This document shows, piece after piece, positions 970 through 39,599 of a stretch of DNA of 64,000 nt (the stretch's first letter is position 1; each line of letters starts with the position of its first letter). Below the pieces are notes generated by a model that did no database searches, was not told the DNA's origin, and saw only the letters and a list, made by a program, of their open reading frames with translations. The stretch is from Acutalibacteraceae bacterium (lineage in GTDB: Bacteria; Bacillota; Clostridia; Oscillospirales; Acutalibacteraceae), in contig JAZSNB010000118.1 in the NCBI GenBank assembly GCA_045536195.1, forward strand, positions 247 through 64,246. The letters are read 5' to 3'. Position numbers and translations under genes: made by a program.

Positions 970-3900
970 TTATGCATTACCTGCAAAAAGCTCTGCAAAG
1001 AATGTGAAGATTCTTGAAATAAGACATGAGATAAAACCGAGATCGGGGAAAATATATTTGTAGTGATACTTTCCGCAATACTTACAGTATTTGTCGGCTT
1101 CTGCTTTATTACCGAGAACTTCTTCAGCCTCTTCGCCTGTAACCTCTGTTTCCTCGCCGCAGATTAAACATACCTTGTATACCTTTTCACCTTCGATTAC
1201 ATATTCATAATCGTGGCCGTGAGCGGGAATAACAGATGTATATGAATAACCGCAATCGCAAGAGAATTCTGCCACACCGTCTTTTGTACAGTCAGGAGCT
1301 GCAATAACATTACCTTCACCGCAATCGTGAGCAGCTGCTTCATAAACTGCAACATAAACAGTATTTGCATCTACCTTTGCAATTTCCTTGTTCCAGCCCT
1401 TGAATTCATAGTGATATGCACTGTCATATGCCTTTGCGGGAGTTTCGCCTTCATATACAGGTGTGTCACCATAGCCATAGAATTTTTCCTGAAGAACTGT
1501 GCCGTCTTCATCAAGGAACTTGATTGTGTATGCAGCAGATACCTTTGAATAAACAGCTGTATAAATAGCATCACCGGTTACGGAAGAAATCTTCTTGTTC
1601 CAACCGTTAAATGTATAAACATGAGTATCTGTGGGCTTTACAGGATCTGCTTCTTTGTACTGAACCTCACTGCCGTAAGGAAGAATTTCTTCCTGAAGAA
1701 CCGTACCGTCATAGTTTACAAACTTAACAGTGTATTCGTTTACGGTAGCTTCAAACTGTGCACGGTATTCTGTTCTTTCTGTGATAGGCTCTAATGCCTT
1801 ATCCCAGCCTGTGAAAGTATAGCTGTACTGTGCTGATGCCTTTCTTTCGGGAGCCTTGCCCTTATACTCGGCAATTGAACCGTAATCAACAAACTTGGAC
1901 TCAAGAACATTGCCGTCCCAGTTAAAGAATGTAACAATTATCTGTTTTGTTTCTGCCTGGTACTCTGCTGTATAGGTAGCTTCACCTGTTACGGAAGTAA
2001 TTTCAGGATCCCAGCCGATAAACTTGTATCTGTAGGAAACGTCCTCGGGCTTCTTGGGCTGTTCTCCCTTGTATTCAGGTGTTTTTCCGTATTCAACAGT
2101 TACCTTATAAAGCACTGTGCCGTCATAATTTTCAAATGTAATTTCGTAAGATTTTGTCTGTGTCTTGTAGCCTGCGGTATAAACGGCTTCGCCTGTAACC
2201 GCCGCAATATTTTTATCCCACTTATCAAATGTGTAAATATACTGTGCATCTTCATCTCTGACAGGTGTTTCGCCCTTATATGAGGGAACAGTACCGTAAT
2301 CAAGAGTTTCTTCCTGAAGAACATCTCCGTTATAATTTACGAACTGAACAAGATATGAATTAAGAGTTGTGCTGTAGGTTGCGGTATAGATCTGAGCGCC
2401 TTCAACCTGTGTAAACTCGTTATCCCAGCCTGCAAATGTGTATGTAAACTGAGCATCCTTTGCCTTTTCGGGTGTTTCACCCTTATATTCGGGCATACCG
2501 AGATAGTCAACCATTTCTTCATAAAGAACAGTGCCGTCATCGTTTACAAACTGAACGAGATAGTCTGCTGTTTCTGAATGGAACTGTGCTACATATTCCT
2601 GTGCACCTGTAACAGCTGTGAACTCCTTGTCCCAACCGTCAAATACCCACTTGGTATCTATAGTGCCTTCCTTTACGGGAGTCTCGCCCTTATATTCGGG
2701 CATTTCGCCGTAGAGAACATCTGTATTCTGAAGCTCCTCACCGTCGTAGTTTCTGAATACTACGGGATAAGAATTCTGTGACCATACAGCATAAAGAGTG
2801 GTATCTTCTGTAATTCCTGTAAGAGCAGCACCGGGAGCATAATCAGCCTTTGTAGCATTCTTATCCTTTGACCAACCTATAAAGCCCCAACCGGTTTCGC
2901 TAAGAACATCAGAGGGAATAACAAAGTCTGCAGAACCCTCAACTACCGTATCATCTGCATTGTAGTATTTTACATTTGTGATAGCTGCAGGAGCGGCTGA
3001 GCCTCTGCCGTTATTATCAAATGTAACTGTAACGGGAGCAGAATATACTGCACGGAAAACATATGTGATACCGTCTTTTACGGGAACTGTGCCTGTGAAT
3101 TCAGCCTTATCTGCCGAAGCATCATCACGCCAGCCGACAAATGTAAGAGCATCGTCATTATATGTTACATTGTTTACAGAAGGAGCTGTCACATCTGCTG
3201 CAATAGCAGTGTTATAAATTGTGCCTGCACCGGCTTCGGTTTTTACCGTACCGTCATTCTGAAGATACTTGAAGGTTGTGGTAACATCCTTGCCGAAGAT
3301 AGCATAAAGAGTGTTATTGAAACCAACATTTACGGTTGTTTTTGAACCTGTTGTTGCATCCTTATTTGTGTTCCAGCCGAGGAAGTTCCAATTGCCCTTG
3401 GTGGCAGTATAAGATGAAACATCAAAGTTGTATGTGGAATTGGGTCCTATCTTAACGGTAGTAGACTTTGCTGCGGTGGTACCGCCGTTGTTTGAAGCAT
3501 TGAAATAAAGATTTGTTTCTGCATTATATACAGCAGAATAAAGATCATTATAAGCAGTATTTATAGAAGCCTGTGTGATAGAAGCTGCACCGTACTGATT
3601 GAATTTATCAACTATGGGCTTTGCATTGTTATATGCAGTTTCAAGAGCACGGTATGTATCGGATGTATAATTGATTTTGTTGGGAACCATATTCACGGCA
3701 TAGGGATATACACTCTGAAGAGAAGATGTGCTTACCTGTGTGGAATTATGGGAATAGTGCATATAAAGATCGCTGCCGCCTGCACCTTCATTAAGCTCAG
3801 CCTTTGTACCTGTTGCATTAAGCTTTGTACAGGTTATACAGCCGCTTCTTGAAGACTGGTCATTGAAATATATGCCTGTGATGGGAGGACCTGCATTGGG

Positions 3901-4410
3901 GTCACGGGTGATATATGCATGGATATACTTTCCGCCTGCGTTAGCGTTAAGGTCAATCACGCCGCCGTCCTCAACACTGTTGGGTTCGTAAGTACCGCCG
4001 ACAAGATAGTAAGTAACCGTTCTGCCGTTCACGGTAAGATTATATGACTGAGGAACTCCGCCGTCATCCGCAACTCTGAATTTGATGTCACGGATAGCGT
4101 CAGCTACATTTGTTGAATTTTTCCAACCGCCTGCAATCCAGTCTGAGCCGGTTCCGCAACCATCGTTGAAGTCCCAGTCAAGGGCACTGTAGCCTGCATC
4201 TGTAAGCTTTTTTTTAGTACTGTTGAGATTTACAACCCCCCAATAGCCTGAACGGGCAAAAGCAATTGCAGAAACAAAGGTTGTTCCTTCGGGATAATAA
4301 TACTCAACGGCATACTGAGCAGATGCCATAAGAGGACAAACGCTCATAATCATAAGCACCGAGAGTATCAGAGATAAAATCGCTGATGGCTTTCTGAATT
4401 TTTTCTTCAC
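970..4410 (-). CDS. Large secreted surface protein: signal peptide, unknown N-terminal domain, about 10 InlB-B/Listeria-Bacteroides-type repeats, Cys-rich C-terminal module with amphipathic tail
   Basis: 1146 aa ORF. The signal peptide is MKKKFRKPSAILSLILSVLMIMSVCPLMASA. Repeats of the form xYxVxFxNxDGTVLxxxxVxYGxxPxYKGETPxK...YxFxGWD recur. The C-terminus has CxxCG...CKYCGKYH and a hydrophobic-aromatic tail. I see no LPXTG. Confidence 0.85.
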   Translation of the reverse strand: MKKKFRKPSAILSLILSVLMIMSVCPLMASAQYAVEYYYPEGTTFVSAIAFARSGYWGVVNLNSTKKKLTDAGYSALDWDFNDGCGTGSDWIAGGWKNSTNVADAIRDIKFRVADDGGVPQSYNLTVNGRTVTYYLVGGTYEPNSVEDGGVIDLNANAGGKYIHAYITRDPNAGPPITGIYFNDQSSRSGCITCTKLNATGTKAELNEGAGGSDLYMHYSHNSTQVSTSSLQSVYPYAVNMVPNKINYTSDTYRALETAYNNAKPIVDKFNQYGAASITQASINTAYNDLYSAVYNAETNLYFNASNNGGTTAAKSTTVKIGPNSTYNFDVSSYTATKGNWNFLGWNTNKDATTGSKTTVNVGFNNTLYAIFGKDVTTTFKYLQNDGTVKTEAGAGTIYNTAIAADVTAPSVNNVTYNDDALTFVGWRDDASADKAEFTGTVPVKDGITYVFRAVYSAPVTVTFDNNGRGSAAPAAITNVKYYNADDTVVEGSADFVIPSDVLSETGWGFIGWSKDKNATKADYAPGAALTGITEDTTLYAVWSQNSYPVVFRNYDGEELQNTDVLYGEMPEYKGETPVKEGTIDTKWVFDGWDKEFTAVTGAQEYVAQFHSETADYLVQFVNDDGTVLYEEMVDYLGMPEYKGETPEKAKDAQFTYTFAGWDNEFTQVEGAQIYTATYSTTLNSYLVQFVNYNGDVLQEETLDYGTVPSYKGETPVRDEDAQYIYTFDKWDKNIAAVTGEAVYTAGYKTQTKSYEITFENYDGTVLYKVTVEYGKTPEYKGEQPKKPEDVSYRYKFIGWDPEITSVTGEATYTAEYQAETKQIIVTFFNWDGNVLESKFVDYGSIAEYKGKAPERKASAQYSYTFTGWDKALEPITERTEYRAQFEATVNEYTVKFVNYDGTVLQEEILPYGSEVQYKEADPVKPTDTHVYTFNGWNKKISSVTGDAIYTAVYSKVSAAYTIKFLDEDGTVLQEKFYGYGDTPVYEGETPAKAYDSAYHYEFKGWNKEIAKVDANTVYVAVYEAAAHDCGEGNVIAAPDCTKDGVAEFSCDCGYSYTSVIPAHGHDYEYVIEGEKVYKVCLICGEETEVTGEEAEEVLGNKAEADKYCKYCGKYHYKYIFPDLGFISCLISRIFTFFAELFAGNA
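1327..2777 (-). repeat. Seven tandem in-frame coding repeats of about 207 nt (69 aa) inside the surface protein gene
   Basis: Protein-level repeats include NSYPVVFRNYDGEELQ..., DYLVQFVNDDGTVLYE..., SYLVQFVNYNGDVLQE..., SYEITFENYDGTVLYK..., QIIVTFFNWDGNVLES..., EYTVKFVNYDGTVLQE... and AYTIKFLDEDGTVLQE.... Boundaries are approximate. Confidence 0.8.
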
Positions 4411-8456: not shown

Positions 8457-10324
8457 TAATTTTCACTGTCCTTAGTAATCATATTTACCATTCCCTCACA
8501 GTCGAGGAAATAGTGTGAGAGAAGTCCCTTTACGGTATTCTGACGCGGGAATTCTCCTTCAACGGCAAAGTTTCTGTAAAGTCCTCTGTAGCCGAATTTA
8601 AAAAGCTTATCTCCGAAGGTTTCTCCTATACCGCCGAAGCGCTGACCTTCTTCAAAGAAATATATTCTTTCGCAGGAAAGAGTTTCCCTTACTGCATCAT
8701 TGCTTACGGGTTTTATAGAGTTGAGCTTCACCACAAAAACCTCTGTTCCCTTTTCTTCCAGCTCTTTTTTTGCCTTGCACGCCTCGCCGAAGCATCTGCC
8801 GTAGGTTACGAGAGCAACCGGACTCTTTTTGCTTCCGTATATGTCATAGTCTTTGTCGGAAGCCTCAAAATCAGGGGGAAGCTGAATATCAACTCCGCGG
8901 GGATATCTTACTGCAACGGGCCCCTCGCAGGAATAAAGAGCTTTTCTGAATGCAGTGCGAAGCTCAGAAAAGGTAGTAGGTGCAAGCACCGTAATATCGG
9001 GAATAGTATTTATAAAGGCGGCATCAAACACACCGTGGTGGGATTCACCGTCGGCACCCACAAAGCCTGCTCTGTCAACAGCAAAAACAATTTTAAGTCC
9101 CTGCATGGCACAGTCGTGTATTATCTGATCATAGGCACGCTGCAGGAATGTGGAATAAACGGCAAACACGGGAAGCATTCCGCCTCTTGCAAGACCTGCA
9201 GCAAATGTAACCGCATGCTGCTCTGCGATACCTACATCAAAAAATCTGTTCGGGAAGCTATTTCTGAAGCCTTCCAGACCGCAGCCGAGACTCATAGCTG
9301 CAGTAATACAGCATATTCTTTCGTCCTTACGGGCCTCTTCTGTTATAAACTCTCCGAAAGCATCGGAAAAGCTGGGCTCAGAGAAAACAGGCTCACCGGA
9401 ATCCAGATTGAAGGCGGATATTCCGTGGAAGGCATCAGGTGCTTTTTCCGCAAATTCATAGCCTCTGCCCTTTACTGTATTTATATGAAGCACGATGGGG
9501 AAATCCGCTTCCTTTGCAGCGCTCAGCGCTCTTATCAGCAAGGACGTATCGTGTCCGTCAATAGGTCCCATATATCTGAAGCCAAGGTCTTCAAACATAG
9601 TGGAATTATATATCATATTCTTAGCGAATTTTTTTACATTGTATATACCCGAAACCAGAGCACCGCCTGCAAGAGGTATATGATTGAGTGCCTGCTCGGT
9701 ACGGGATTTGAGCTTGAAATAACGCGGTGTTGCGCGCATTTTGGCAAAATACCTTGCAAGAGCTCCGACATTAGGTGAAATTGACATTTCATTGTCATTG
9801 AGCACAACAATAAGCTTTGTGCCGTTTCCTGCTCTGCCGGCATTATTGAGAGCCTCATAGACCATACCGCCCGTAAAGGCTCCGTCACCCACAACAGCTA
9901 CGGTGTAATCATTGCTGCCGTTTATTTTATTAGCCGCGGCAATCCCGTAAGCTGCCGATAAAGCAACGCTTGAATGACCGCCGGACATAATATCGTGCTC
10001 ACTCTCACCCCGTCTTGTGAAGCCTGCAAGACCTCCGGGCTGTCTGAGAGTAGAAAACTCCTCTTTTCTGCCCGTAAAAAGCTTGTGGGTGTAGCATTGA
10101 TGGGCAACGTCCCATATTATTTTATCATCGGGAGAAGAAAAAACTCTGTGCAAAGCAATCGTCAGCTCTACAACACCGAGGTTGGAAGCAAGATGTCCGC
10201 CTGTTTTTGAGACGGTGGAGATAAGCTCTTCTCTCACCTCCGAAGCCAATACATCGAGCTCATTTTCGGGGATTTTTTTTACATCATCCGGTGAATTTAT
10301 ATAAGGTAAATATTTTCCTTCCAC
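8456..10324 (-). CDS. dxs: 1-deoxy-D-xylulose-5-phosphate synthase
   Basis: 622 aa with GGHLASNLGVVELTIALH and GDGAFTGGMVYEALNNAG TPP motifs. It starts with GTG. Confidence 0.95.
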   Translation of the reverse strand: MEGKYLPYINSPDDVKKIPENELDVLASEVREELISTVSKTGGHLASNLGVVELTIALHRVFSSPDDKIIWDVAHQCYTHKLFTGRKEEFSTLRQPGGLAGFTRRGESEHDIMSGGHSSVALSAAYGIAAANKINGSNDYTVAVVGDGAFTGGMVYEALNNAGRAGNGTKLIVVLNDNEMSISPNVGALARYFAKMRATPRYFKLKSRTEQALNHIPLAGGALVSGIYNVKKFAKNMIYNSTMFEDLGFRYMGPIDGHDTSLLIRALSAAKEADFPIVLHINTVKGRGYEFAEKAPDAFHGISAFNLDSGEPVFSEPSFSDAFGEFITEEARKDERICCITAAMSLGCGLEGFRNSFPNRFFDVGIAEQHAVTFAAGLARGGMLPVFAVYSTFLQRAYDQIIHDCAMQGLKIVFAVDRAGFVGADGESHHGVFDAAFINTIPDITVLAPTTFSELRTAFRKALYSCEGPVAVRYPRGVDIQLPPDFEASDKDYDIYGSKKSPVALVTYGRCFGEACKAKKELEEKGTEVFVVKLNSIKPVSNDAVRETLSCERIYFFEEGQRFGGIGETFGDKLFKFGYRGLYRNFAVEGEFPRQNTVKGLLSHYFLDCEGMVNMITKDSEN

Positions 10325-17685: not shown

Positions 17686-18903
17686 TTACAGAGAGATTCT
17701 GAATGCTTCCTTTACAAGATGGAAGAATTCCATAATAAGGCAGATAATGTCTTCAAGAAGATTCTCATGTTCCTTTCCGCAGAAGGAGCATATTTCAGAA
17801 GCATCCTCGGAATCATCAGGCTGTGTTGTTTCTTCTTCCTGTACGGGCTCCTTGTATTCCTGACCGCAGATTGAACATCCGTAATACGAAACTGTATCTA
17901 CAACAGGAGTGAATTCGGACATCTGCTGAGAATTGCCCCACTCTCCTTCACCGCCGTTACTGTTAACAACTACCTTGTAATACGTGTAAGCAGTATCGGC
18001 ATTTACATCAAAAGCTTCACTCTCGGTCAAAGAATCAGCAGGAAGAGAAGAATCCTTAACGTCATGAACAACTGTCCATTCTCCGTCCTCACTGTCGCTG
18101 CCGTAAACAGTCCAGTCTATCCAGTTACGTTCAGGATAATTAGCTGTATCAAGCGCTGTAGTCATAGTATAAGAAACCAGTTTTACAGGAGCGCCATAAC
18201 TGAAAATAAAATAAGGACATTCTTCTGTTGAAAATTCGGTGCACCATTTTGTATACACATTTCCGTCAAAAAGATAGGAAGCATCCTCGTCATATCCGAT
18301 ACCGGGTGTACCCGAAACAAACCGGGATTCAACAGGCAATTCAACATATTCCTCATGAGAACATTCCATACCGCAGAACTTACAAAGTCCGGTACTTACG
18401 AATAAATGGGTACACACGGCTCCGCAGGCACATATTCCGGTTTCTGATGAATAACCGTGAGGAAAAGCTATGCCGCATTCAAATCCGCAGATCGTACATT
18501 TATTACCTACAACATTATGTTCACATTCTATATATATTACATTATTTTCAAAAAATGCATTTTCCGCCTTAACGCTGACAACAGTTTTTCCGTCGATAGC
18601 TATTTCAAAAGAGCATTCCCACGGACAATTTCCCGGTATCCATTGAAAAACATAATTATCTGAGTCGGATAATTCAAGCTCAACAGTTTCATTATCTCCG
18701 TCCATTGTAACTCTTTCTACCGGTTCAAAATTACCGTCAACAACCTTACTGATTAAAATCGCGTTTCCTTCCCATCCGTCTCCATAAGCATCCTGCATTT
18801 CGATAACAACGTTTTTTCCTGCAGCAAAAGCAGTGACAGTCAATGCAGCAAGCATAACAACAGAGAGAATAATTGATAAGGTTTTCTTTAATGTGTTTTT
18901 CAT
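17686..18903 (-). CDS. Secreted Cys-rich protein with a discoidin/F5-8 type C-like domain and the shared C-terminal CxxCGKxH/amphipathic module
   Basis: I chose the start at the internal Met (MKNTLKKTLSIILSVVMLAALTVTAFAAG, a signal peptide), which is preceded by GAAAGGAGA. A YLFDGNVYTKW...YYKVVV stretch looks like a galactose-binding-like domain. The C-terminus is CSICGQE...CSFCGKEH...IICLIMEFFHLVKEAF. Confidence 0.7.
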   Translation of the reverse strand: MKNTLKKTLSIILSVVMLAALTVTAFAAGKNVVIEMQDAYGDGWEGNAILISKVVDGNFEPVERVTMDGDNETVELELSDSDNYVFQWIPGNCPWECSFEIAIDGKTVVSVKAENAFFENNVIYIECEHNVVGNKCTICGFECGIAFPHGYSSETGICACGAVCTHLFVSTGLCKFCGMECSHEEYVELPVESRFVSGTPGIGYDEDASYLFDGNVYTKWCTEFSTEECPYFIFSYGAPVKLVSYTMTTALDTANYPERNWIDWTVYGSDSEDGEWTVVHDVKDSSLPADSLTESEAFDVNADTAYTYYKVVVNSNGGEGEWGNSQQMSEFTPVVDTVSYYGCSICGQEYKEPVQEEETTQPDDSEDASEICSFCGKEHENLLEDIICLIMEFFHLVKEAFRISL

Positions 18904-19189
18904 TAATTTTTCTCCTTTCAGGATTTTTTGTTGCATAAACCCGGCCGACGACGGATTTGCCTTAAAATTTTTGTCGATTGTCAATCATAACGACATTAAA
19001 ATATCAGCTACAGGGGAAGTGAAAGTATTTTCAAACAGGAAAAGCATCTTCAACAATCTGTCTTCACAGCTTCCAGTTTTAATATTCGGGCTGATATTCA
19101 TCTGTTCATCATTCAAATAAAGCACATTCGCAAAACGGACCGCAGTTTGATATCAACAACATTTTACAACACTATTTGTTTATTGTCAA

Positions 19190-32336: not shown

Positions 32337-35300
32337 TTACATTAATCTGCCGAATATCTGAGTGATATTGGAAATAATTCTGTAGAACCAGTTAACAAGT
32401 CTCTGCCAGAAGGAAAGCTGTACTTCTTCTACTGCAGAATCGGTAGCACACTTTGCATAGCAGGTATAGGGTGCGCCGTCGATATTTGTTACAGTACAGA
32501 TAATAAACTTTCCGCTGTCGGCATCTGTGAGAGTGTAAGCATCTGTGCCTGAAGCAACCTTAACACCGTTTCTGGGATCATCCTCGGGATCATCAATTCT
32601 GTACCATTCAAACCAGAGATAATCATATGCGCCCTGAGGAATGTCATTTGTGATAACATAAAGTGACTTTCCGCTCTGAGCTGTACCTGTGAATGAAATA
32701 GCAATATTGAGCTCTGAGGGTTCAACAGTAAGAGTGATATACTGTGTGATTGTTGCATAGTTCTGAGTGTTGAAGGGAGTGAATACTACCTTATAAACAT
32801 CAGCGAAGGTGCCTACTTCAAGAGGAGTAGTTGTGGGATTCTCCATTGAGAATGTACCGAATTCTGTTCCGACATAGCTTGAAGTATACTTAACTGTTGA
32901 AAGCTTCTGGCCGTAGCCTACGGTACCTGTAAGAGGAAGTACAACGCCGGGAGTCTTTGCCTTGAGGATTTCAACATTAAGAGTGGGATTAAGAAGTCTC
33001 AGTTCATAGTTGCCTGACTTTGCACCTGCAAGTGCGGGCATTGTATACTTAACACTCTTGATGCCGGCATTTTCGTCAGCAACAGTACCCTGGATGGGGA
33101 ATGTGCCTTCAAGGAATACATCATTTGCACCGTCGGAGCCATAGAGGTTTGTAATAGCAGAGAAGCTTACGTCAACATTAAGATTGCCGGGAGCATATTC
33201 TCTGTCCTTTGCAACAGCTTCAACATAAGCAGGACGCTTATTGACTGTTACCATACCGTTTTTGTAGATAAAGTCGTAGTTGTCGCTTTCAAAAGCACCT
33301 GTAAGAACGACATCATACTGACCGACATCACTGCCTGCCTGATATGAGCAGTTCATAAGAACATAACCGTCAACATCATTCTTAATGGTATCAGCACCTG
33401 TAAGACCTGATACATTGTAGTAGTATGTGGGTTCAATATCACCGTATGTAACAGTGAAGTTAGCAGCTGTAATTGTTACAACTGTCTTAAGAATTTCAAC
33501 CTCTACTTCATATTCAACGGTTGCGTAGTTGTTTGTATCATCGGGAGTGTAAATTGCCTTGTAGGTATGTACACCGGCACCGGGAACTGTATTTGCAACA
33601 TCTGCTGCCCATGCCCAACGGCTGTCACCGAGGGAGATAGCATTAAGAGGTCTTGCACTGTCGTAGTAAAGAACATCTGTCATGGGAATGGGATAGAAGG
33701 GAGTTGCCTTAAGAATCTGAACCTTAAGACCGTCAAGGTTTGTAAGCTCAAGCTCGTAGTTACCGGCCTTTGAGCCTGTAAGAACAGCACCTGATACAGT
33801 TACATTTCTGAGACCTGCTCTGTAGTTATCAATAGCACCCTGAACAAGAGATTCATCAACATATACAAAGCCGTCATCGCCTTCTGCAAGTGTGTTGCCG
33901 ACGGGTTCAAAGCTGAGGTCTACATAGTAGTTGTTCTCTTCATATTCTCTTTCAACGGGAACAACCTTAACCTTAAGAGTTCTCTTTGTAATGTCAGCCT
34001 TTGAATCGTTTGACATTGAAACAAGAAGCTCATAGTTATCGGCAGCTGAGCCCTTGAGCACAGCATTATTTATAAATACATCAATATCAGTGCCGACATT
34101 TGTTGATGCGAAGTAGTAAATTGCAGCTTCGCTGTCAAAAGCAACATCATCCGAAGTTCCGTCTGCAAGAGTCATAGCACCGTATTCTTCAGTTACTGTG
34201 GCTTCTGCTGCACCTGTGCCGTCATATACCTTGTCGAGAACCTCAACATTTACATAATAGGGAGCAGGTGTGATAACAAGTGTACCGATCTTGTAGTTTG
34301 CTACGGGAGAGTAAACAACCTGACCGTCTACTGTTGTAAGACCGTTTACTGTCTGAAGCTTTGTGAAATCAACATCGGGAGTATCGATATCGATAGTAAC
34401 TGTGTAATAACCTACTTCTGTGGGGGCGGAGACAGAGCCGTTGTACTTAACGGTAACATTACCGATAGCGGCACTTGAAAGGCTCTTGTCGTCTCTGTGG
34501 AATTCTACATAGTGAGGCTGAGCATTATATGTATATTCTGCATCGCCGCCGTATGTGGAAAGACCTGCAAGATCGAAATAATTATCATATGCATCTGCAC
34601 CGAGAATAGTTTCAACCTTTGTAAGAGAAGGCGCAATAACAGTTGTTACATAAACAACCTCACCTGTGTAAGGAGCATTTGCAACAGCCTTTACTGTGAG
34701 CTTCTGGTTCTTGTGAGCTTCGGCAAGAACGATTTCTGCACCTGTGCCTACCTGAACATTTGAAGCATTGTACCATGTAAGAGTGTATACACCGATTTCA
34801 TCGGGATCAAGACCTGTTACATCAACAGTAAGCTTTTCACCTACCATGGGAATACCTGCAACAGCGAGTGTACCGCTGACGGGCTTCTTATTAACTGTAA
34901 GAGCAACATAAAGACCTGATACTGAATTGTAGTTTACTGTATCTGCGGGAACGAATGTTGCAGTGTAAATTGTATAAGCCTCTGCGCGGTATGCGGGAGT
35001 TGTTGAAGCTGCGTTATAAACGTATTTACCGGTTACGCCGTTTTCAACGTTGCCGCCTGCAAATACTGCATCGCCGAGAGTCTGACCGTGAACGATTGTT
35101 GCAGTGGGAAGAGTAAGAACTCTGGGAGTTGCCTTGATAACAGTAATAACACCGTGCTGAACTGTTACTGTGTAGTTATTGAATGTAGCATCGGTAACAT
35201 CAACAGTAACAGGATAACCGTCTTTATTTACGGGTGAGCCCTTTTCATAGGTTGTGTCAATCTTTATCTTACCTGAAGAAACAACCTCATCTGCTGTTTC

Positions 35301-38300
35301 ATTTCTCTTTGCACCTACAACAGAGAATGCATTTTCAATATCAGCAGGAATTGCACTGCCGTATTCAAGTGTGATGTCATCAGCCTTGATAACAAGCTGT
35401 GCCTTTGTAACCTTGAGGCTACCTGCAGTTGTAGCTACTTCATAGTTGGGAGATGTGATGAAATTGGGAGTAGCCTTGATATAGTATGTACCTACCTGAT
35501 AGTTGTCGATATATCTGAAGTCGGTTGAATACTCAAATGTGGGAGCAGCGCCGCTTGCAGTAACATCTTCAATTGTATCAGTACCGACAAGAAGAGCTTC
35601 GTCATAAGAAACCTTTACAGTAGATGCAGAGGGAACAAAGTTGTCACCGTAGATTGCGGTTGCATCCTCAACCTTGAAGGTGATAAGTCTGGGTTTAACA
35701 GTGATAACACCGTCTGAAGTTGTAAATGTATAGTTACCGTTTACATCAACAAAGTTGGGAGCAGAAATTTCAACTGCATAGCCGCCCTCAACAACAGGTG
35801 AGCCCTTTACATAATCTGTATGAGGAGTGATATTACCTGATGTGGTAACAGCATCAATATTAAACGTAGGATCAAGGTCAGCCTTATATGTATAAGCTGT
35901 GATATTGGGGATATTGTCACCGTAGGAAACTGAGCCGGCATAGGATATAACAACGGGAGTTGCCTTAACCTTAATTGCAATATCAACTACCTTGACTTCA
36001 TAGTTATTAAGATCCTGAGGAACATACTGTGCCTTGTAGGTTGCAACTTTTACTGTGGGATTAATTGTTGCATCCACCCACTGCCATGAGCCTTCTACAG
36101 AGGATGTGTAGCCTGTGAGCTCAACATCCTTAAGGGTTCTTGCATTCTGATAATACATTTCCTCAACAACGGGAGTTGTAACTGTGGGAACACCCTTAAG
36201 AATGGTTACAAGAAGTGTTGCGCCTGACTTATATATAACATCAGCTACATAGTAGTTCTTTCCCGCACCGCCTGTTACAAGGTCTGCAACAGACTGCTTT
36301 GTAATACCGCTTACTTCTCTTATACCTGCAGTATTGTCACTGAGTCCACCTGAAGCAGCAAGAATACGGACGTCGTCAACACCGAATTTACCGTCTGTGA
36401 TTGTGAAGGTAACTTCTACATTATAATTATCGGGAGCATATGCTCTGTCTTTTGCCACAGCCTCAACCTTTATAGGTCTCTGAGAAACTCTGAGAACACC
36501 TTCAGCGTTGGCATCCTGACCGTAAGCATATACATATTCATAGTTTGAAAGAAGCTCGGGAACATCTGTGAAGGTTGCACGGATGTAGTAAGAGCCTACT
36601 GCAACCTCACCGGCAACATAAGGAACATAGCTGTCGCCGTTGAGAATCATATAGCTGAGTGCATTTGCTATTGTCTGCTTTGCAGCATCTCCTGTGTCGT
36701 TACCTACAAGACCTGTGATGGTAACGGAATAAGGAGTATCAAATGTATCATTACCGTATACTACTGCGGCAGCATTGGGTCTGATGGTAAGAGGAGCCTT
36801 CTTTACACTGAACTCAACATTGAACTGGGTTGCCTTATAGTTCTTTGCTGTGGGAGCAGCGGAGTATGTGGGAGTCCATGTGATTGAAACGATCTGGTTG
36901 TCGCCCACAGTCTTGAAGGATGAGCCGTCAGCAGCATTTGTAAAGGAGAATACACCTGTGAGATTTGATTCGTTTACAATTCCCTTTGCCGAATAGGTTG
37001 AAAGCTGAAGTATTTCATTGAGCTTCTGACCGTAGGTAAGTGAAACGGTTTCGGGAAGTGTGCCTCTGAGAATGGAAGCCTGCTCGATTATAAGAGTAAA
37101 GGTATATTCAAGAGCGTGTCTGTTCTTATTGTGCTTGGGGTCTTTGTTATAGGTTGTGCTTTCGGCAATATTGAGGGTTACCTCATAAGTACCTGCATTT
37201 ACGGGAAGCTGACCGGATTCACTTGTTTCCTTCACACCTGCTTCGTTTGTACCGGTGTAGGAATAAGTAACACTAATAAGGTCGCTGTCTGTGAAGTCAA
37301 GGTTATAGTCCCTTGAATAATCGGTCTGCATAATTGCATCAATAACCTGAAGACCTATATCGGTTGCCTTTATGGGAGAGCCTGTATAGGTGGTCGTGGC
37401 AACATTTGATGTGCCTACCTTTGCCTTGATGTCATTGGCATCAAGTCTACCGTAGTCAACAAAGATATAAATGGGGCCGTTGGTTGCGGGAGCTGCACCG
37501 TCTGCGGCACCCTGTGAACCGAAGGTTTTGAAAACAGTACCCTTGTTATTTAAAGATGTAACATTGTAATCGGATAACCATGCATCGGATATTGCATAAG
37601 TAATATTTACAAGTCCCCAATAGTAGCTGTTGCAGGATTCTGCACCTGAGATATACTTGATAGAAGCATCGGGAGACTTTGTAAGTATGCTCTGACCTGT
37701 TACACCTGAAAGATTCACAAGTGAATTTACAACATCAGTGCCGTCTGTAAGAGGCATAAATGAGTAACCTACATTGCCTTCATCACCGACGATAGATGTG
37801 TCGATAGCAGTCTTGTTCTTATCAACCCAATATCTGTAAACAACGTGAACACGGTTTTTGCCTTCAAGAGCACCGCGGACAATAGATGTGGGAATACCGT
37901 TTACGTTGGTAACAATACTTCCGGCATAGCTGTTATTAGCTTCGTCAAGGAAGTTATTTGCAACAACAGCAGCAGAAGGTGTTACAATAACATATTCGGT
38001 GTAGGACATCATGTAATTTACAATATCATGGGCTGATTTTATCATTTCAGAAGAAGAAACAACAGAGCCCTTACGATATGTAACATTAACATCAGAATTC
38101 ATGCAATTCTCTGCAGGAGTTGTTATCGTTACGTCGGGAAGAACAGGGAGATTTCCTGAAACGGTATAAATACCGCCGCCGAAAAGAAACTGCTGTCCGT
38201 TACCGTCAGAGGTTACCGCATCAATACTGTTTATATTTGCATCATGTGTAATATTACCGCCGGTGATATTAATACTGCCGCTGGTTGCAATGCCGTATGC

Positions 38301-39236
38301 TATTGAGGTAATTCGGGCTCTACCGTCACTCGCATTACCGCCATAAGTATTACGGTGATGATTACCCTGTGATGTAACCGTCATTGTGGTTGCGGATGAA
38401 ACATTAACATTACCGCCGTAAACACCGTAAGCTACAGCAGCAGTGGAGGTTCTTTCACCGTCATCGCACTGGGAGGTCATTGAGCCCTGTCCCTGAGCAT
38501 AAACGGTAATTTCTGCAGCATTGATGCTGCAGGTAGCTGCAGCGGATGTGTTATAAACTGCAGTTGCTGCAGATGAAACCTGTGAAGACTCTTCTGTTAT
38601 AAGCGAACCACCAACACTTATTTCATAATGAAGAGTGGAATTGACATTTATTTTAACACCCTTATTGATTGTAAGGTTGCCTTCATTTCTGATAGCCTCA
38701 AGGTTAGCATAGCTGAGCTCTTTTTTGCCTGCACCCATTCCGGTTCTGACATTAACAATGCTTATAGAAGCTGTATTGGAAGTGGCATTCACGGATGAGC
38801 CGCTGTAGATATTAAGGTTACCCTTGTTGTGGATACCGTAAACATAGGGCAGCTGCCATGCACCGTCAGAGGAACGGTCAAAAACAACAGTACCGCCGTT
38901 CATAAAGAAGTTGACCGTCAGTCCCTGCGGAATAACAATACCTGTAATTCCGGAGCCGAAGGTAGCTGTTGATGTATTTGTCAAAACAACAGATGCCGAG
39001 GGTCCTGACAATTTCATATTAACGACAGTGCCCGGGGCAAAAGAACTGAGCTTGTTGTTTATATCAGCAACAGTTGCATTAGCCGGTATAACATATTCTT
39101 CAGCTGCAGAAGCAACAGGAAGAATATCTGCCGATAAGGTGGGGAGAACAGAAAGGGACATAACAACAGCAAGAAGCATAACAATCACTTTTGCTGTCAC
39201 TTTTGCAAATCTGCTCTGTGATGAATTATTTTTCAC
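32337..39236 (-). CDS. Giant (2299 aa) secreted adhesin-like protein: signal peptide, beta-helix-like N-terminal region, many YDG/MBG-type repeats, amphipathic aromatic C-terminal tail
   Basis: It is an uninterrupted 6.9 kb ORF. The signal peptide is ...VIVMLLAVVMSLSVLPTLSA. Modules of the form KVYDGT / KDR(A/E)YAP and YGD..P...G.Y....NY....G.L.V.K recur. I see no LPXTG, SLH or dockerin. The protein ends in FWQRLVNWFYRIISNITQIFGRLM. Confidence 0.85.
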   Translation of the reverse strand: MKNNSSQSRFAKVTAKVIVMLLAVVMSLSVLPTLSADILPVASAAEEYVIPANATVADINNKLSSFAPGTVVNMKLSGPSASVVLTNTSTATFGSGITGIVIPQGLTVNFFMNGGTVVFDRSSDGAWQLPYVYGIHNKGNLNIYSGSSVNATSNTASISIVNVRTGMGAGKKELSYANLEAIRNEGNLTINKGVKINVNSTLHYEISVGGSLITEESSQVSSAATAVYNTSAAATCSINAAEITVYAQGQGSMTSQCDDGERTSTAAVAYGVYGGNVNVSSATTMTVTSQGNHHRNTYGGNASDGRARITSIAYGIATSGSINITGGNITHDANINSIDAVTSDGNGQQFLFGGGIYTVSGNLPVLPDVTITTPAENCMNSDVNVTYRKGSVVSSSEMIKSAHDIVNYMMSYTEYVIVTPSAAVVANNFLDEANNSYAGSIVTNVNGIPTSIVRGALEGKNRVHVVYRYWVDKNKTAIDTSIVGDEGNVGYSFMPLTDGTDVVNSLVNLSGVTGQSILTKSPDASIKYISGAESCNSYYWGLVNITYAISDAWLSDYNVTSLNNKGTVFKTFGSQGAADGAAPATNGPIYIFVDYGRLDANDIKAKVGTSNVATTTYTGSPIKATDIGLQVIDAIMQTDYSRDYNLDFTDSDLISVTYSYTGTNEAGVKETSESGQLPVNAGTYEVTLNIAESTTYNKDPKHNKNRHALEYTFTLIIEQASILRGTLPETVSLTYGQKLNEILQLSTYSAKGIVNESNLTGVFSFTNAADGSSFKTVGDNQIVSITWTPTYSAAPTAKNYKATQFNVEFSVKKAPLTIRPNAAAVVYGNDTFDTPYSVTITGLVGNDTGDAAKQTIANALSYMILNGDSYVPYVAGEVAVGSYYIRATFTDVPELLSNYEYVYAYGQDANAEGVLRVSQRPIKVEAVAKDRAYAPDNYNVEVTFTITDGKFGVDDVRILAASGGLSDNTAGIREVSGITKQSVADLVTGGAGKNYYVADVIYKSGATLLVTILKGVPTVTTPVVEEMYYQNARTLKDVELTGYTSSVEGSWQWVDATINPTVKVATYKAQYVPQDLNNYEVKVVDIAIKVKATPVVISYAGSVSYGDNIPNITAYTYKADLDPTFNIDAVTTSGNITPHTDYVKGSPVVEGGYAVEISAPNFVDVNGNYTFTTSDGVITVKPRLITFKVEDATAIYGDNFVPSASTVKVSYDEALLVGTDTIEDVTASGAAPTFEYSTDFRYIDNYQVGTYYIKATPNFITSPNYEVATTAGSLKVTKAQLVIKADDITLEYGSAIPADIENAFSVVGAKRNETADEVVSSGKIKIDTTYEKGSPVNKDGYPVTVDVTDATFNNYTVTVQHGVITVIKATPRVLTLPTATIVHGQTLGDAVFAGGNVENGVTGKYVYNAASTTPAYRAEAYTIYTATFVPADTVNYNSVSGLYVALTVNKKPVSGTLAVAGIPMVGEKLTVDVTGLDPDEIGVYTLTWYNASNVQVGTGAEIVLAEAHKNQKLTVKAVANAPYTGEVVYVTTVIAPSLTKVETILGADAYDNYFDLAGLSTYGGDAEYTYNAQPHYVEFHRDDKSLSSAAIGNVTVKYNGSVSAPTEVGYYTVTIDIDTPDVDFTKLQTVNGLTTVDGQVVYSPVANYKIGTLVITPAPYYVNVEVLDKVYDGTGAAEATVTEEYGAMTLADGTSDDVAFDSEAAIYYFASTNVGTDIDVFINNAVLKGSAADNYELLVSMSNDSKADITKRTLKVKVVPVEREYEENNYYVDLSFEPVGNTLAEGDDGFVYVDESLVQGAIDNYRAGLRNVTVSGAVLTGSKAGNYELELTNLDGLKVQILKATPFYPIPMTDVLYYDSARPLNAISLGDSRWAWAADVANTVPGAGVHTYKAIYTPDDTNNYATVEYEVEVEILKTVVTITAANFTVTYGDIEPTYYYNVSGLTGADTIKNDVDGYVLMNCSYQAGSDVGQYDVVLTGAFESDNYDFIYKNGMVTVNKRPAYVEAVAKDREYAPGNLNVDVSFSAITNLYGSDGANDVFLEGTFPIQGTVADENAGIKSVKYTMPALAGAKSGNYELRLLNPTLNVEILKAKTPGVVLPLTGTVGYGQKLSTVKYTSSYVGTEFGTFSMENPTTTPLEVGTFADVYKVVFTPFNTQNYATITQYITLTVEPSELNIAISFTGTAQSGKSLYVITNDIPQGAYDYLWFEWYRIDDPEDDPRNGVKVASGTDAYTLTDADSGKFIICTVTNIDGAPYTCYAKCATDSAVEEVQLSFWQRLVNWFYRIISNITQIFGRLM

Positions 39237-39599
39237 AATAATTCCTCCTCTTAAAATTTGTTACAAAATCACCGGGTGCAACAGGGCACACCGATATAAT
39301 TATACAGATTGATTATAATATTTCGGCGGTCAACTGTCAATGATAAACACGAAAAATTTTAAGAGAGTGAAATTTTTTTAATATTATGACAAAATTCCGT
39401 AATATGTTTTATAAACTTTTACAAACGTCTTCATTCTCTGACAGAACAATATATACTTTTCTGTAAAAATCTGTATTTTCAGACTGCAGAAAAAGCGCCT
39501 ACGGCATCAAAATTATCACTTGAAGTCATACTGCATATATGTTATCATAAAATTAATTGTAAAAAATAATATTATTATAAATATACGGAGGTTTTTCTT

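What the first reader, a model, noticed from the sequence alone, without database searches (positions are those of the whole stretch)
970..1173. Homologous C-terminal module on two unrelated secreted proteins (CxICG / acidic linker / CxxCGKxH / CLI-amphipathic helix): candidate surface-retention or sorting signal
- The last 67 aa of the 1146-aa protein are VCLICGEETEVTGEEAEEVLGNKAEADKYCKYCGKYHYKYIFPDLGFISCLISRIFTFFAELFAGNA.
- The last 64 aa of the discoidin-domain protein (17686-17880) are GCSICGQEYKEPVQEEETTQPDDSEDASEICSFCGKEHENLLEDIICLIMEFFHLVKEAFRISL.
- The two align residue for residue at both CxxCG pairs, the GK-H, the CLI motif and the aromatic amphipathic end.
- The rest of the two proteins is unrelated.
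- Both have signal peptides and lack LPXTG, SLH, CWB or dockerin modules.
- The two CxxC pairs could form a zinc knuckle.
- The terminal helix contains charged residues (R, E, K), so it looks too amphipathic for a plain TM anchor.
- I do not know a named sorting signal with this pattern.
Basis: seen in the sequence. Interest (0 to 1): 0.7.

Follow-up and report, generated by a model that had tools for sequence, protein, structure and literature searches.

The report
Unnamed C-terminal knuckle-plus-helix anchor module
Two unrelated exported proteins in this window end in the same short, conserved tail (a cysteine/histidine knuckle followed by a greasy amphipathic helix), which recurs at the very end of many different adhesin-like proteins of gut Clostridia, has no name in current family libraries, and most likely holds those proteins on the cell membrane.

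Summary
Both tails sit at the stated coordinates and align with BLASTP E=1e-5; the rest of the two proteins is unrelated. A profile built only from other tail types still finds both (E=5e-13 and 1e-6; next window ORF about 0.1).

An exhaustive search of 1.84 billion proteins gave 76 hits, of which 69 are true. In all 69 the motif lies 31-42 residues from the C-terminus. Fifty of the 69 have signal-peptide-like N-termini. The bodies are varied adhesin types (BspA-LRR, Flg_new, coiled coil, VWA). The 12 genome loci retrieved with the commonest tail type are all Acutalibacteraceae or unclassified Clostridia gut MAGs.

- **Conserved core:** acidic/Pro-rich linker, CxxCG-x2-H, eight residues, Cys, then a roughly 20-residue Phe/Ile-rich amphipathic helix.
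- **Selection:** the tail is under stronger purifying selection than the body.
- **Databases:** there is no match in Pfam, NCBIfam, PDB or the literature.

The helix is too charged to be a plain membrane-spanning segment. It has the same pattern as the proven E. coli PBP5 membrane anchor.

Best reading (about 0.45): an interfacial membrane anchor capped by a metal knuckle. Function is inferred, not shown. I rate it a new variant of a known kind, with interest 0.6.

The parts
970..4410 (-). Gene for protein 1 (1146 aa). It is an exported protein rich in Listeria-Bacteroides-type repeats and carries the C-terminal module.
   Evidence: ORF. There is a weak TIGR02543 repeat hit and no anchor domain in Pfam. 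Orthologue cluster P0013-P0022 keeps the tail.
4318..4410 (-). Signal peptide of protein 1 (residues 1-31, MKKKFRKPSAILSLILSVLMIMSVCPLMASA|Q). The cleavage site is inferred.
   Evidence: Read directly from the sequence. No signal-peptide predictor was available.
1156..1170 (-). Upstream, optional CxxCG knuckle of protein 1 (CLICG, residues 1081-1085).
   Evidence: An upstream Cx2-3C lies within 60 aa of the core knuckle in 54 of 69 family members and is absent in 15.
1087..1155 (-). Acidic linker of protein 1 (residues 1086-1108).
   Evidence: Across the family, the 25 aa upstream of the core knuckle are E 20%, P 14%, D 14% and T 10%.
1063..1086 (-). Core knuckle of protein 1, CKYCGKYH (residues 1109-1116).
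   Evidence: C, C, G and H are invariant or nearly invariant in 45 tails. AlphaFold2 places the CxxC at the turn of a beta-hairpin.
973..1062 (-). Terminal region of protein 1 (residues 1117-1146): a 4-residue insertion typical of this subtype (FPDL), then the amphipathic Phe/Ile-rich helix containing the conserved Cys1129 (codon 1024-1026).
   Evidence: AlphaFold2 helix at residues 21-39 of the 42-aa tail, pLDDT 80-85. Hydrophobic moment 0.47, mean hydrophobicity <H> 0.52. Coordinates.
17686..18903 (-). Gene for protein 2 (405 aa). It is an exported protein with Cys-rich repeats, a discoidin-like (F5/8 type C) domain and the C-terminal module.
   Evidence: ORF. The start was set by 10 orthologues of 56-98% identity. 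PF00754 scores E=2e-4, below the gathering score.
18823..18903 (-). Signal peptide of protein 2 (residues 1-27, MKNTLKKTLSIILSVVMLAALTVTAFA|A). It is of the KKTLSIIL type shared by most tail-bearing proteins.
17863..17877 (-). Upstream, optional CxxCG knuckle of protein 2 (CSICG, residues 343-347).
   Evidence: AlphaFold2 gives it its own hairpin (E4-6/E13-15), separated from the core by a linker with pLDDT below 50.
17791..17862 (-). Acidic/Pro/Thr linker of protein 2 (residues 348-371).
17767..17790 (-). Core knuckle of protein 2, CSFCGKEH (residues 372-379).
17689..17766 (-). Terminal amphipathic helix of protein 2 (ENLLEDIICLIMEFFHLVKEAFRISL, residues 380-405) with the conserved Cys388 (codon 17740-17742).
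   Evidence: AlphaFold2 helix 46-68, pLDDT 74-80. Hydrophobic moment 0.58. Non-synonymous change is 0.12-0.18 per codon in the tail against 0.28-0.47 in the body, with synonymous change equal or higher.

Best explanation
The tail is a portable C-terminal membrane-attachment module for Sec-exported surface proteins of a clade of gut Clostridia (Acutalibacteraceae and relatives).

Proposed mechanism, step by step:
1. The protein crosses the membrane through its N-terminal signal peptide. The signal peptides are shown by sequence.
2. The last roughly 20 residues form a strongly amphipathic, Phe/Ile-rich helix. The helix and its pattern are shown by prediction and conservation.
3. That helix lies in, or dips obliquely into, the outer leaflet of the cytoplasmic membrane. 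This is how the C-terminal helix of E. coli PBP5 tethers that enzyme. This step is inferred.
4. The CxxCG-x2-H hairpin just before the helix, together with the Cys on the helix's narrow polar stripe, binds a metal ion, probably zinc, and caps or orients the start of the helix. This step is inferred from ligand conservation and Cys/His exchange.
5. The acidic, Pro/Thr-rich linker acts as an extended stalk that carries the adhesin body outward through the wall. This step is inferred.
For: 1. **Position.** All 69 true hits of an exhaustive profile search have the motif 31-42 residues from the C-terminus. Fifty of the 69 have signal-peptide-like N-termini; the other 19 lack one, and most of those are short entries, probably fragments.
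2. **Portability.** The bodies are unrelated surface or adhesin types: LRR_5 in 13 of 54, plus Flg_new, coiled coil, LRR_8, VWA, GLUG, beta-helix and FIVAR.
3. **Helix physics.** After the His there are a median 27 residues, of which 5 are charged. The longest apolar run has a median of 6 and a maximum of 14. The median hydrophobic moment is 0.59. Phe makes up 19% and Ile 15%. Only 2 of 45 tails have an uncharged run of 18 or more residues, and none has a terminal basic cluster.
4. **Conserved stripe.** Polar positions fall at +12/13, +16 (Cys), +20, +23 and +27, and every other position is hydrophobic, across 47 unique tails.
5. **Precedent.** PBP5 is Sec-exported and tethered to the outer face of the inner membrane by its last 18 residues (PMC2909392). 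Its anchor, GNFFGKIIDYIKLMFHHW (PMC3189734), aligns without gaps to the commonest tail: FFGKIIDYIKLMF against FFTRIINFIKNLF, 7 of 13 identical and the same hydrophobic/polar pattern. None of 2000 shuffles reached that score. Mean hydrophobicity and moment are similar: 0.37/0.50 for PBP5 against 0.37/0.62 for the tail.
6. **Selection.** The tail is under stronger purifying selection than the body. Helix-core codons differ mostly synonymously between species (0.18 synonymous against 0.08 non-synonymous changes per codon).
7. **Fold.** AlphaFold2 gives a hairpin knuckle followed by a helix.
8. **Metal ligands.** C, C and H are invariant or nearly so. The helix Cys is at +16 in 54 of 69 tails. Four of the five tails lacking it have His at +16, +19 or +20, on the same helical face.
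9. **Linker.** The Pro/Glu/Asp/Thr-rich linker resembles wall-spanning stalks.
Against: - No experiment and no localisation data exist for any member.
- Sequence conservation inside each tail subtype is much higher than simple lipid binding needs. Polar-face residues are conserved too, which hints at a specific protein partner or self-association.
- The protein-2 subtype helix has net charge about -3, which is unfavourable for lying on an anionic bacterial membrane.
- The polar stripe is only one residue wide. A spanning, oligomerising helix is therefore not excluded.
- The PBP5 resemblance covers 13 residues of the commonest subtype only. It is weak or absent for the two window tails themselves: the shuffle fraction is 0.12 for protein 2 and 0.73 for protein 1.
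- Metal binding was not measured, and model coordinates could not be inspected.
Confidence: 0.45

Rival explanations
1. The tail is a true sorting signal, recognised and perhaps cleaved by a dedicated, still unidentified enzyme or machinery. This would be a many-to-one system like sortase/LPXTG, exosortase/PEP-CTERM or rhombosortase/GlyGly-CTERM. The knuckle would be the signature motif and the helix the membrane-retention segment.
For: - It behaves as a lineage-restricted suffix family: the proteins are homologous only in the tail, the tail is always at the extreme C-terminus, and a signal peptide is always present where the N-terminus is intact. This is the comparative-genomic signature that PMC3237569 describes for such systems.
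- Sequence conservation of motif and helix is very high across species and bodies.
- The tail is coupled to a distinctive conserved signal peptide. Nine of 10 tail-bearing ORFs carry it against 1 of 27 other signal-peptide-like ORFs, p=8e-7. This recalls the YSIRK/LPXTG pairing.
Against: - Two of the three architectural features are missing. There is no uninterrupted TM helix and no terminal basic cluster.
- No candidate processing gene recurs within about 10 kb of the tail genes in some 15 loci. Only a TetR-type regulator recurs.
- No NCBIfam sorting-domain model matches.
- The signal-peptide association may simply reflect paralogy.
Confidence: 0.15
2. The tail is a protein-protein interaction or self-assembly module. 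The knuckle-capped helix either docks into a partner on the cell surface, in the manner of a dockerin, or bundles with other copies to make multivalent adhesin clusters.
For: - Polar-face residues are conserved within subtypes, and distinct subtypes exist. Both are typical of specific interfaces.
- The spacing of the hydrophobic and polar positions is heptad-like.
- The protein-2 subtype is net acidic.
- The clade also uses cohesin-dockerin systems: dockerin-bearing neighbours occur in L001 and L018, and PMC12997984 describes such systems in the family.
Against: - About 75-80% of the helix surface is Phe/Ile/Leu. That is far more than a soluble docking helix normally exposes.
- No partner was identified.
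- There is no similarity to dockerin or any solved interaction module.
Confidence: 0.2
3. The helix is a genuine membrane-spanning tail anchor with its N-terminus outside and its C-terminus inside. Its charged and Asn stripe would be buried by oligomerisation.
For: - The helix length of 21-23 residues fits a bilayer span.
- Fourteen of 45 tails reach a Kyte-Doolittle 19-residue mean of 1.6 or more.
- The one-residue-wide polar stripe, with Asn, Glu and Arg, could drive helix-helix association.
- Nineteen of 45 tails have a K or R among the last three residues.
Against: - There are a median of 5 charged residues in the segment.
- Only 2 of 45 tails have an uncharged run of 18 or more residues.
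- There is no cytoplasmic basic cluster to stop transfer.
- The protein-2 subtype has E, D, E, H, K, E and R spread along the helix.
Confidence: 0.12

Closest known systems
C-terminal amphipathic membrane anchor of low-molecular-weight PBPs (E. coli PBP5/DacA, PBP6, DacD)
   Same: - The protein is Sec-exported with a cleavable signal peptide.
- It is held on the outer face of the cytoplasmic membrane by its last roughly 18-20 residues, which form an amphipathic, aromatic-rich helix (PMC2909392).
- The hydrophobic/polar pattern is the same, and 7 of 13 residues are identical between FFGKIIDYIKLMF and FFTRIINFIKNLF. Hydrophobicity and moment are similar.
   Different: - PBP5 has no Cys/His knuckle and no acidic/Pro linker.
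- The PBP5 anchor is attached to one enzyme family in a diderm. Here the module is a shuffled suffix on many adhesin-like bodies in monoderm Clostridia.
- The resemblance is probably convergent, and it is weak for the two window subtypes.
Tripartite C-terminal sorting signals (LPXTG/sortase, PEP-CTERM/exosortase, GlyGly-CTERM/rhombosortase, PGF-CTERM/archaeosortase)
   Same: - It lies at the extreme C-terminus.
- A signature motif is followed by a hydrophobic helix.
- An N-terminal signal peptide is always present.
- It is a lineage-specific family whose members share only the tail (PMC3237569).
   Different: - The helix is amphipathic and charged, not a TM segment.
- There is no terminal basic cluster.
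- The motif is a Cys/His knuckle.
- No cognate enzyme is known or was found nearby.
- No NCBIfam model matches.
Zinc knuckle / zinc ribbon / rubredoxin-type CxxCG knuckles
   Same: - The CxxCG lies at a beta-hairpin turn.
- There are sub-threshold hits to zinc-finger and rubredoxin knuckles.
- Cys/His interchange occurs at the fourth ligand position.
   Different: - The location is extracytoplasmic.
- The ligand spacing, C-x2-C-x3-H-x8-C, runs from a hairpin into a membrane-type helix.
- No library family reaches its threshold.
- Metal binding is untested.
Dockerin modules of cellulosome-type systems
   Same: - It is a short C-terminal module appended after a Pro/Thr-rich linker to diverse extracellular proteins.
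- It occurs in a clade that also has dockerins.
   Different: - There is no PF00404 match.
- The tail has one helix rather than a duplicated Ca-binding helix pair.
- It is far more hydrophobic.

Membership tests
Sortase-type tripartite C-terminal sorting signals (LPXTG, PEP-CTERM, GlyGly-CTERM) | Located at the extreme C-terminus of proteins that have an N-terminal signal peptide | tested here: met
   The motif is 31-42 aa from the end in 69 of 69 hits. Fifty of the 69 have a signal-peptide-like N-terminus; the other 19 lack one, and most of those are short, probably fragments.
Sortase-type tripartite C-terminal sorting signals (LPXTG, PEP-CTERM, GlyGly-CTERM) | Paralogous suffix shared by proteins that are otherwise unrelated | tested here: met
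   The window proteins share only the tail. The hits carry LRR_5, Flg_new, coiled-coil, VWA, GLUG and other bodies.
Sortase-type tripartite C-terminal sorting signals (LPXTG, PEP-CTERM, GlyGly-CTERM) | Uninterrupted transmembrane helix after the motif | tested here: not met
   There are a median of 5 charged residues. The longest apolar run has a median of 6. Only 2 of 45 tails have an uncharged run of 18 or more residues.
Sortase-type tripartite C-terminal sorting signals (LPXTG, PEP-CTERM, GlyGly-CTERM) | [quoted passage not shown] | tested here: not met
   None of 45 tails has 3 or more K/R in the last six residues, and 5 of 45 have 2 or more.
Sortase-type tripartite C-terminal sorting signals (LPXTG, PEP-CTERM, GlyGly-CTERM) | Known signature motif (LPXTG, PEP, GG) or a match to a curated model | tested here: not met
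   Neither window protein has an LPxTG-like motif. There is no NCBIfam or Pfam hit for 45 tails.
Sortase-type tripartite C-terminal sorting signals (LPXTG, PEP-CTERM, GlyGly-CTERM) | Co-distributed dedicated processing enzyme (many-to-one) | not testable with these tools
Within about 10 kb of some 15 loci no processing gene recurs; only a TetR-family gene does.
PBP5-type C-terminal amphipathic membrane anchor | Sec-exported protein whose last roughly 18-25 residues form an amphipathic helix | tested here: met
   The signal peptides are read from the sequence. AlphaFold2 predicts terminal helices. The median hydrophobic moment is 0.59.
PBP5-type C-terminal amphipathic membrane anchor | Hydrophobicity, moment and residue pattern comparable with the PBP5 anchor | tested here: met
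   Mean hydrophobicity and moment are 0.37/0.62 for the commonest tail against 0.37/0.50 for PBP5. The ungapped 13-residue match is reached by 0 of 2000 shuffles. The match is weaker for the window subtypes, with shuffle fractions of 0.12 and 0.73.
PBP5-type C-terminal amphipathic membrane anchor | Demonstrated binding to the outer face of the cytoplasmic membrane | not testable with these tools
   This needs fractionation or liposome assays.
PBP5-type C-terminal amphipathic membrane anchor | Attached to a DD-carboxypeptidase (family membership by homology) | tested here: not met
   The bodies are adhesin-like repeats, and no peptidase S11 domain is present. The tail therefore works like the PBP5 anchor but is not a member of that family.
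Zinc knuckle / zinc ribbon | CxxC at the turn of a beta-hairpin | tested here: met
   AlphaFold2 places strands on both sides of each CxxC. pLDDT is only 61-74.
Zinc knuckle / zinc ribbon | Four conserved metal ligands | tested here: inconclusive
   C, C and H are invariant or nearly so, and the helix Cys is at +16 in 54 of 69 tails. Four of the five tails lacking it have His on the same face. Geometry could not be checked because no coordinates were available.
Zinc knuckle / zinc ribbon | Match to a curated zinc-ribbon or zinc-finger family, or to a solved structure | tested here: not met
   Only sub-threshold hits were found: zf-C4_ClpX at 18 bits against a cut-off of 27, and Zn_ribbon_8 at 17.7 against 34.4. 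The PDB profile search gave E of 0.15 or worse, and Foldseek found nothing.
Dockerin | PF00404 match or a duplicated Ca-binding loop-helix | tested here: not met
   There is no Pfam hit in either protein or in 45 tails.

The most novel reading that the evidence does not exclude
The tail, together with its co-occurring KKTLSIILAILM-type signal peptide, defines a previously unrecognised surface-display system of gut Clostridia. An extracytoplasmic metal-knuckle motif plus an amphipathic helix would be read by dedicated, still unknown machinery. The conserved 5' and 3' gene ends would also let adhesin bodies be swapped by recombination. Remnant genes with head and tail but no body are consistent with this.
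Probability: 0.15. Interest if true: 0.85.

Novelty: new variant of a known kind. Interest (0 to 1): 0.6.

Why it matters
Much of the gut Clostridia encodes large adhesin-like proteins that have no recognisable anchor: no LPXTG, SLH, CWB2 or dockerin. How these proteins stay on the cell is unknown, and annotation pipelines call them hypothetical.

A defined, searchable C-terminal module has several uses:
- It gives a handle for predicting the surface proteome of these uncultured organisms.
- It offers a portable tag for surface display in anaerobes.
- It makes a concrete hypothesis testable with peptides and liposomes.
- If a metal site is confirmed, it would be an unusual extracytoplasmic zinc knuckle coupled to a membrane helix.

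Tried and rejected
**Searches that led nowhere**
- Two word-indexed homology searches with the short tails returned nothing, because too few 5-residue words were shared.
- The metagenome scan with the protein-2 subtype found nothing, and the scan with the commonest subtype found one locus.
- tblastn against the plasmid and phage collections gave no match.
- Foldseek of the 42-aa model against the PDB gave no match. The PDB sequence profile gave only insignificant knuckle hits.
- Exact look-ups of the window's own proteins in the contig index failed. The source genome could therefore not be extended, and copies per genome could not be counted.
- Literature searches by concept and by exact peptide strings found no description.

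**Ideas considered and rejected**
- A plain TM anchor was rejected on charge content.
- CaaX-like or lipidation roles for the 'CLI' Cys are disfavoured. The Cys is internal, lies on the polar stripe, and is replaced by His in variants.
- A single zinc site formed by both CxxCG pairs is disfavoured.
- Membership of the 2307-aa neighbour's tail in the family is not supported statistically (HMM E=31).
- A relic without function is contradicted by purifying selection.
Full report
**1. Observation**

Protein 1 is window 970-4410 on the minus strand, 1146 aa. Protein 2 is 17686-18903 on the minus strand, 405 aa. The mechanical ORF for protein 2 begins at a TTG at 18984, but ten orthologues start at MKNTLKK.

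BLASTP of the two full proteins gives a single significant segment, C-terminus against C-terminus (E=1e-5). Nothing else aligns. A six-frame scan finds CxxCG[KRQ]xH only at 1063-1086 and 17767-17790.

Neither protein has an LPxTG-like motif. Neither has a Pfam or NCBIfam hit to any anchoring domain. The tails themselves hit no curated family.

**2. The tail is a family, not a coincidence**

Orthologues of protein 2, at 56-98% identity, keep the tail almost unchanged. A weak hit, P0012, has a BspA-type LRR body and the same tail on a third unrelated body.

A profile of seven tails was searched exhaustively against 1.84 billion representative proteins. It returned 76 proteins at E<=1e-3. Seven are unrelated; four of these are tandem C2H2-type zinc-finger proteins. 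In all 69 others the last CxxC starts 31-42 residues from the C-terminus. Fifty of the 69 have signal-peptide-like N-termini. The other 19 lack one, and most of those are short entries, probably fragments.

A leave-family-out profile, built from 37 tails of neither window subtype, still detects both window tails. Protein 2 scores E=5.4e-13 and protein 1 scores E=1e-6 among 470 window ORFs. The next best ORF scores about 0.1.

The bodies of 54 longer members carry LRR_5 (13), Flg_new (4), long coiled coils (4), LRR_8, VWA, GLUG, beta-helix and FIVAR. These are typical surface or adhesin domains.

The only source name found is 'hypothetical protein [Clostridia bacterium]'. A scan of species-representative genomes with the commonest subtype gave 12 loci. 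All are Acutalibacteraceae or unclassified Clostridia MAGs from human and ruminant gut (taxonomy).

Synteny of a protein-2 orthologue in an assembly from the JAZ-series accessions, like the loci labelled Acutalibacteraceae, places the window's organism in this group. JGI metagenomes, plasmids and phages gave almost nothing.

**3. Anatomy**

- **Consensus**: an acidic/Pro/Thr linker, then C-x2-C-G-[KE]-x-H, an N-cap (T/D/N followed by N/G), and a helix of about 21 residues.
- **Helix pattern:** positions +10, 11, 14, 15, 17, 18, 21, 22, 25, 28 and 29 are nearly always F, I or L. Positions +12/13, +20, +23 and +27 are polar.
- **Conserved Cys:** a Cys at +16 lies on that one-residue-wide polar stripe.
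- **First CxxCG:** in most members it is part of an H-x-D-x-DGDY-x-CD-x-GCG-x-E-x-EKP unit. It is present within 60 aa in 54 of 69 members and absent in 15.
- **Predicted fold:** AlphaFold2 models the first CxxCG as its own hairpin beyond a linker with pLDDT below 50. The core knuckle is a hairpin followed by a helix, with helix pLDDT of 74-85.
- **Cys/His exchange:** four of the five tails without the helix Cys have His at +16, +19 or +20, on the same helical face. This is what one expects of a metal ligand and not of a disulfide or lipidation site.

**4. Selection**

Among nine species-level loci of the commonest subtype, helix-core codons differ at 0.18 synonymous against 0.08 non-synonymous changes per codon per pair. 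The knuckle shows 0.28 against 0.09. The residues just before the knuckle, and those between the His and the helix, change freely.

In protein 2 orthologues the tail shows 0.12-0.18 non-synonymous changes per codon. The body shows 0.28-0.47, with synonymous change equal or higher in the tail. The tail is therefore functional and is the most constrained part of the protein.

**5. Mechanism**

The helix is not a TM segment. It carries a median of five charged residues, the longest apolar run has a median of six, and only 2 of 45 tails have an uncharged run of 18 or more. There is no terminal basic cluster. The helix is strongly amphipathic (median moment 0.59) and extremely rich in Phe and Ile.

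The best-characterised analogue is the C-terminal anchor of E. coli PBP5. That anchor tethers a Sec-exported enzyme to the outer face of the inner membrane (PMC2909392). Its sequence, GNFFGKIIDYIKLMFHHW (PMC3189734), aligns without gaps to the commonest tail: FFGKIIDYIKLMF against FFTRIINFIKNLF. None of 2000 shuffles reached the score, and hydrophobicity and moment are similar.

I therefore favour an interfacial or oblique membrane anchor, capped by a metal knuckle, with the acidic/Pro linker acting as a stalk. This is inference only. The PBP5 match is weak for the two window subtypes. The protein-2 helix is net acidic, and conservation of the polar face suggests an additional specific contact.

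The rivals are a dedicated sorting signal, a docking or self-assembly module, and an oligomerising spanning helix. Each is scored separately in this report.

No processing gene recurs next to tail genes. Only a TetR-type regulator recurs, immediately upstream in four loci.

**6. Comparison with known systems**

The module shares position, signal-peptide dependence and suffix-like distribution with the tripartite sorting signals (PMC3237569). It fails two of their defining features, the TM helix and the basic cluster. It also matches none of their models.

It works like the PBP5 anchor but is not a member of that family. It resembles zinc knuckles only below the thresholds. No paper in the searchable library mentions the motif or its peptides.

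**7. Verdict**

It needs one correction: the core is CxxC-H-C plus the helix, and the first CxxCG is optional.

The function is unproven. I rate this a new variant of a known kind, namely C-terminal membrane-anchoring modules, with moderate-to-high interest.

Noticed in passing
window 32337-39260 (-): This is a 2307-aa exported giant protein with MBG_2 and YDG repeats. It ends ...CYAKCATDSAVEEVQLSFWQRLVNWFYRIISNITQIFGRLM. By eye this terminal aromatic amphipathic helix resembles the P0012/P0063 tails (FFQRLICAIRDFFNRIISFFTGLF) but lacks the CxxCG-H knuckle. Tail HMMs do not detect it (E=31), so homology is unproven. It may be a knuckle-less relative.
   Followed up: partly
N-termini of window 17686-18903(-) and 970-4410(-); L001, L006-L010, L014; hits P0024-P0095: Tail-bearing proteins share an unusually conserved signal peptide, MKK(T)LSIILAILMIVTTxPFAFAA. 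A loose regex for it matches 28 of 50 full-length hits. In the fetched loci it matches 9 of 10 tail ORFs against 1 of 27 other signal-peptide-like ORFs (Fisher p=8e-7). The ORFs are not independent, because they are paralogues. The pattern is a conserved head and tail around a variable body.
   Followed up: partly
L015 about 1500-1830; L016 about 9760-10114: Two decayed copies were seen. In L015 a signal peptide is followed after about 30 codons by stop codons and then by an intact NFFSEIICFFTKIINFIKNLFA tail. In L016 the tail is frameshifted. These may be pseudogenes or products of head-to-tail recombination.
   Followed up: no
L002 9177-10004, L009 1721-2476, L014 6137-6871, L015 883-1587: A homologous TetR-family regulator gene lies immediately upstream of the tail-bearing gene in four loci from different genomes. 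It is not present upstream of either window gene.
   Followed up: partly
L009 2451-2918 and 2929-4506: Two tail-bearing genes of different tail subtypes sit in tandem, 10 bp apart.
   Followed up: no
window 18349-18522 (protein 2 residues about 128-185); window 1174-1305 (protein 1 residues about 1036-1079): Both proteins have further Cys/His-rich mini-repeats upstream of the tail. Protein 2 has CEHNVVGNKCTICGFECG...CACGAVCTH...CKFCGMECSH. Protein 1 has HDCGEGN..CTKDG..CDCGYSY..GHDY. Many family members carry 2-39 such Cx2-3C units, and a recurrent H-x-D-x-DGDY-x-CD-x-GCG-x-E-x-EKP unit contains a DxDxDG-like loop. No Pfam family covers them.
   Followed up: no
window 970-4410 (-), residues about 545-1035: Protein 1 contains about eight tandem repeats of roughly 65 aa (Y-x-V-x-F-x-N-x-DG-x-VL ... 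Y-x-G-x-x-P ... Y-x-F-x-GWD ... Y-x-A-x-Y). These reach no Pfam threshold and give only a weak TIGR02543 hit further upstream.
   Followed up: no
L001 1382-4807; L018 7486-8541: Related genomes encode dockerin-bearing proteins near the tail genes. The clade therefore has at least two different ways of placing proteins on the surface. Relatives in the family also use LPxTG (PMC12997984).
   Followed up: no
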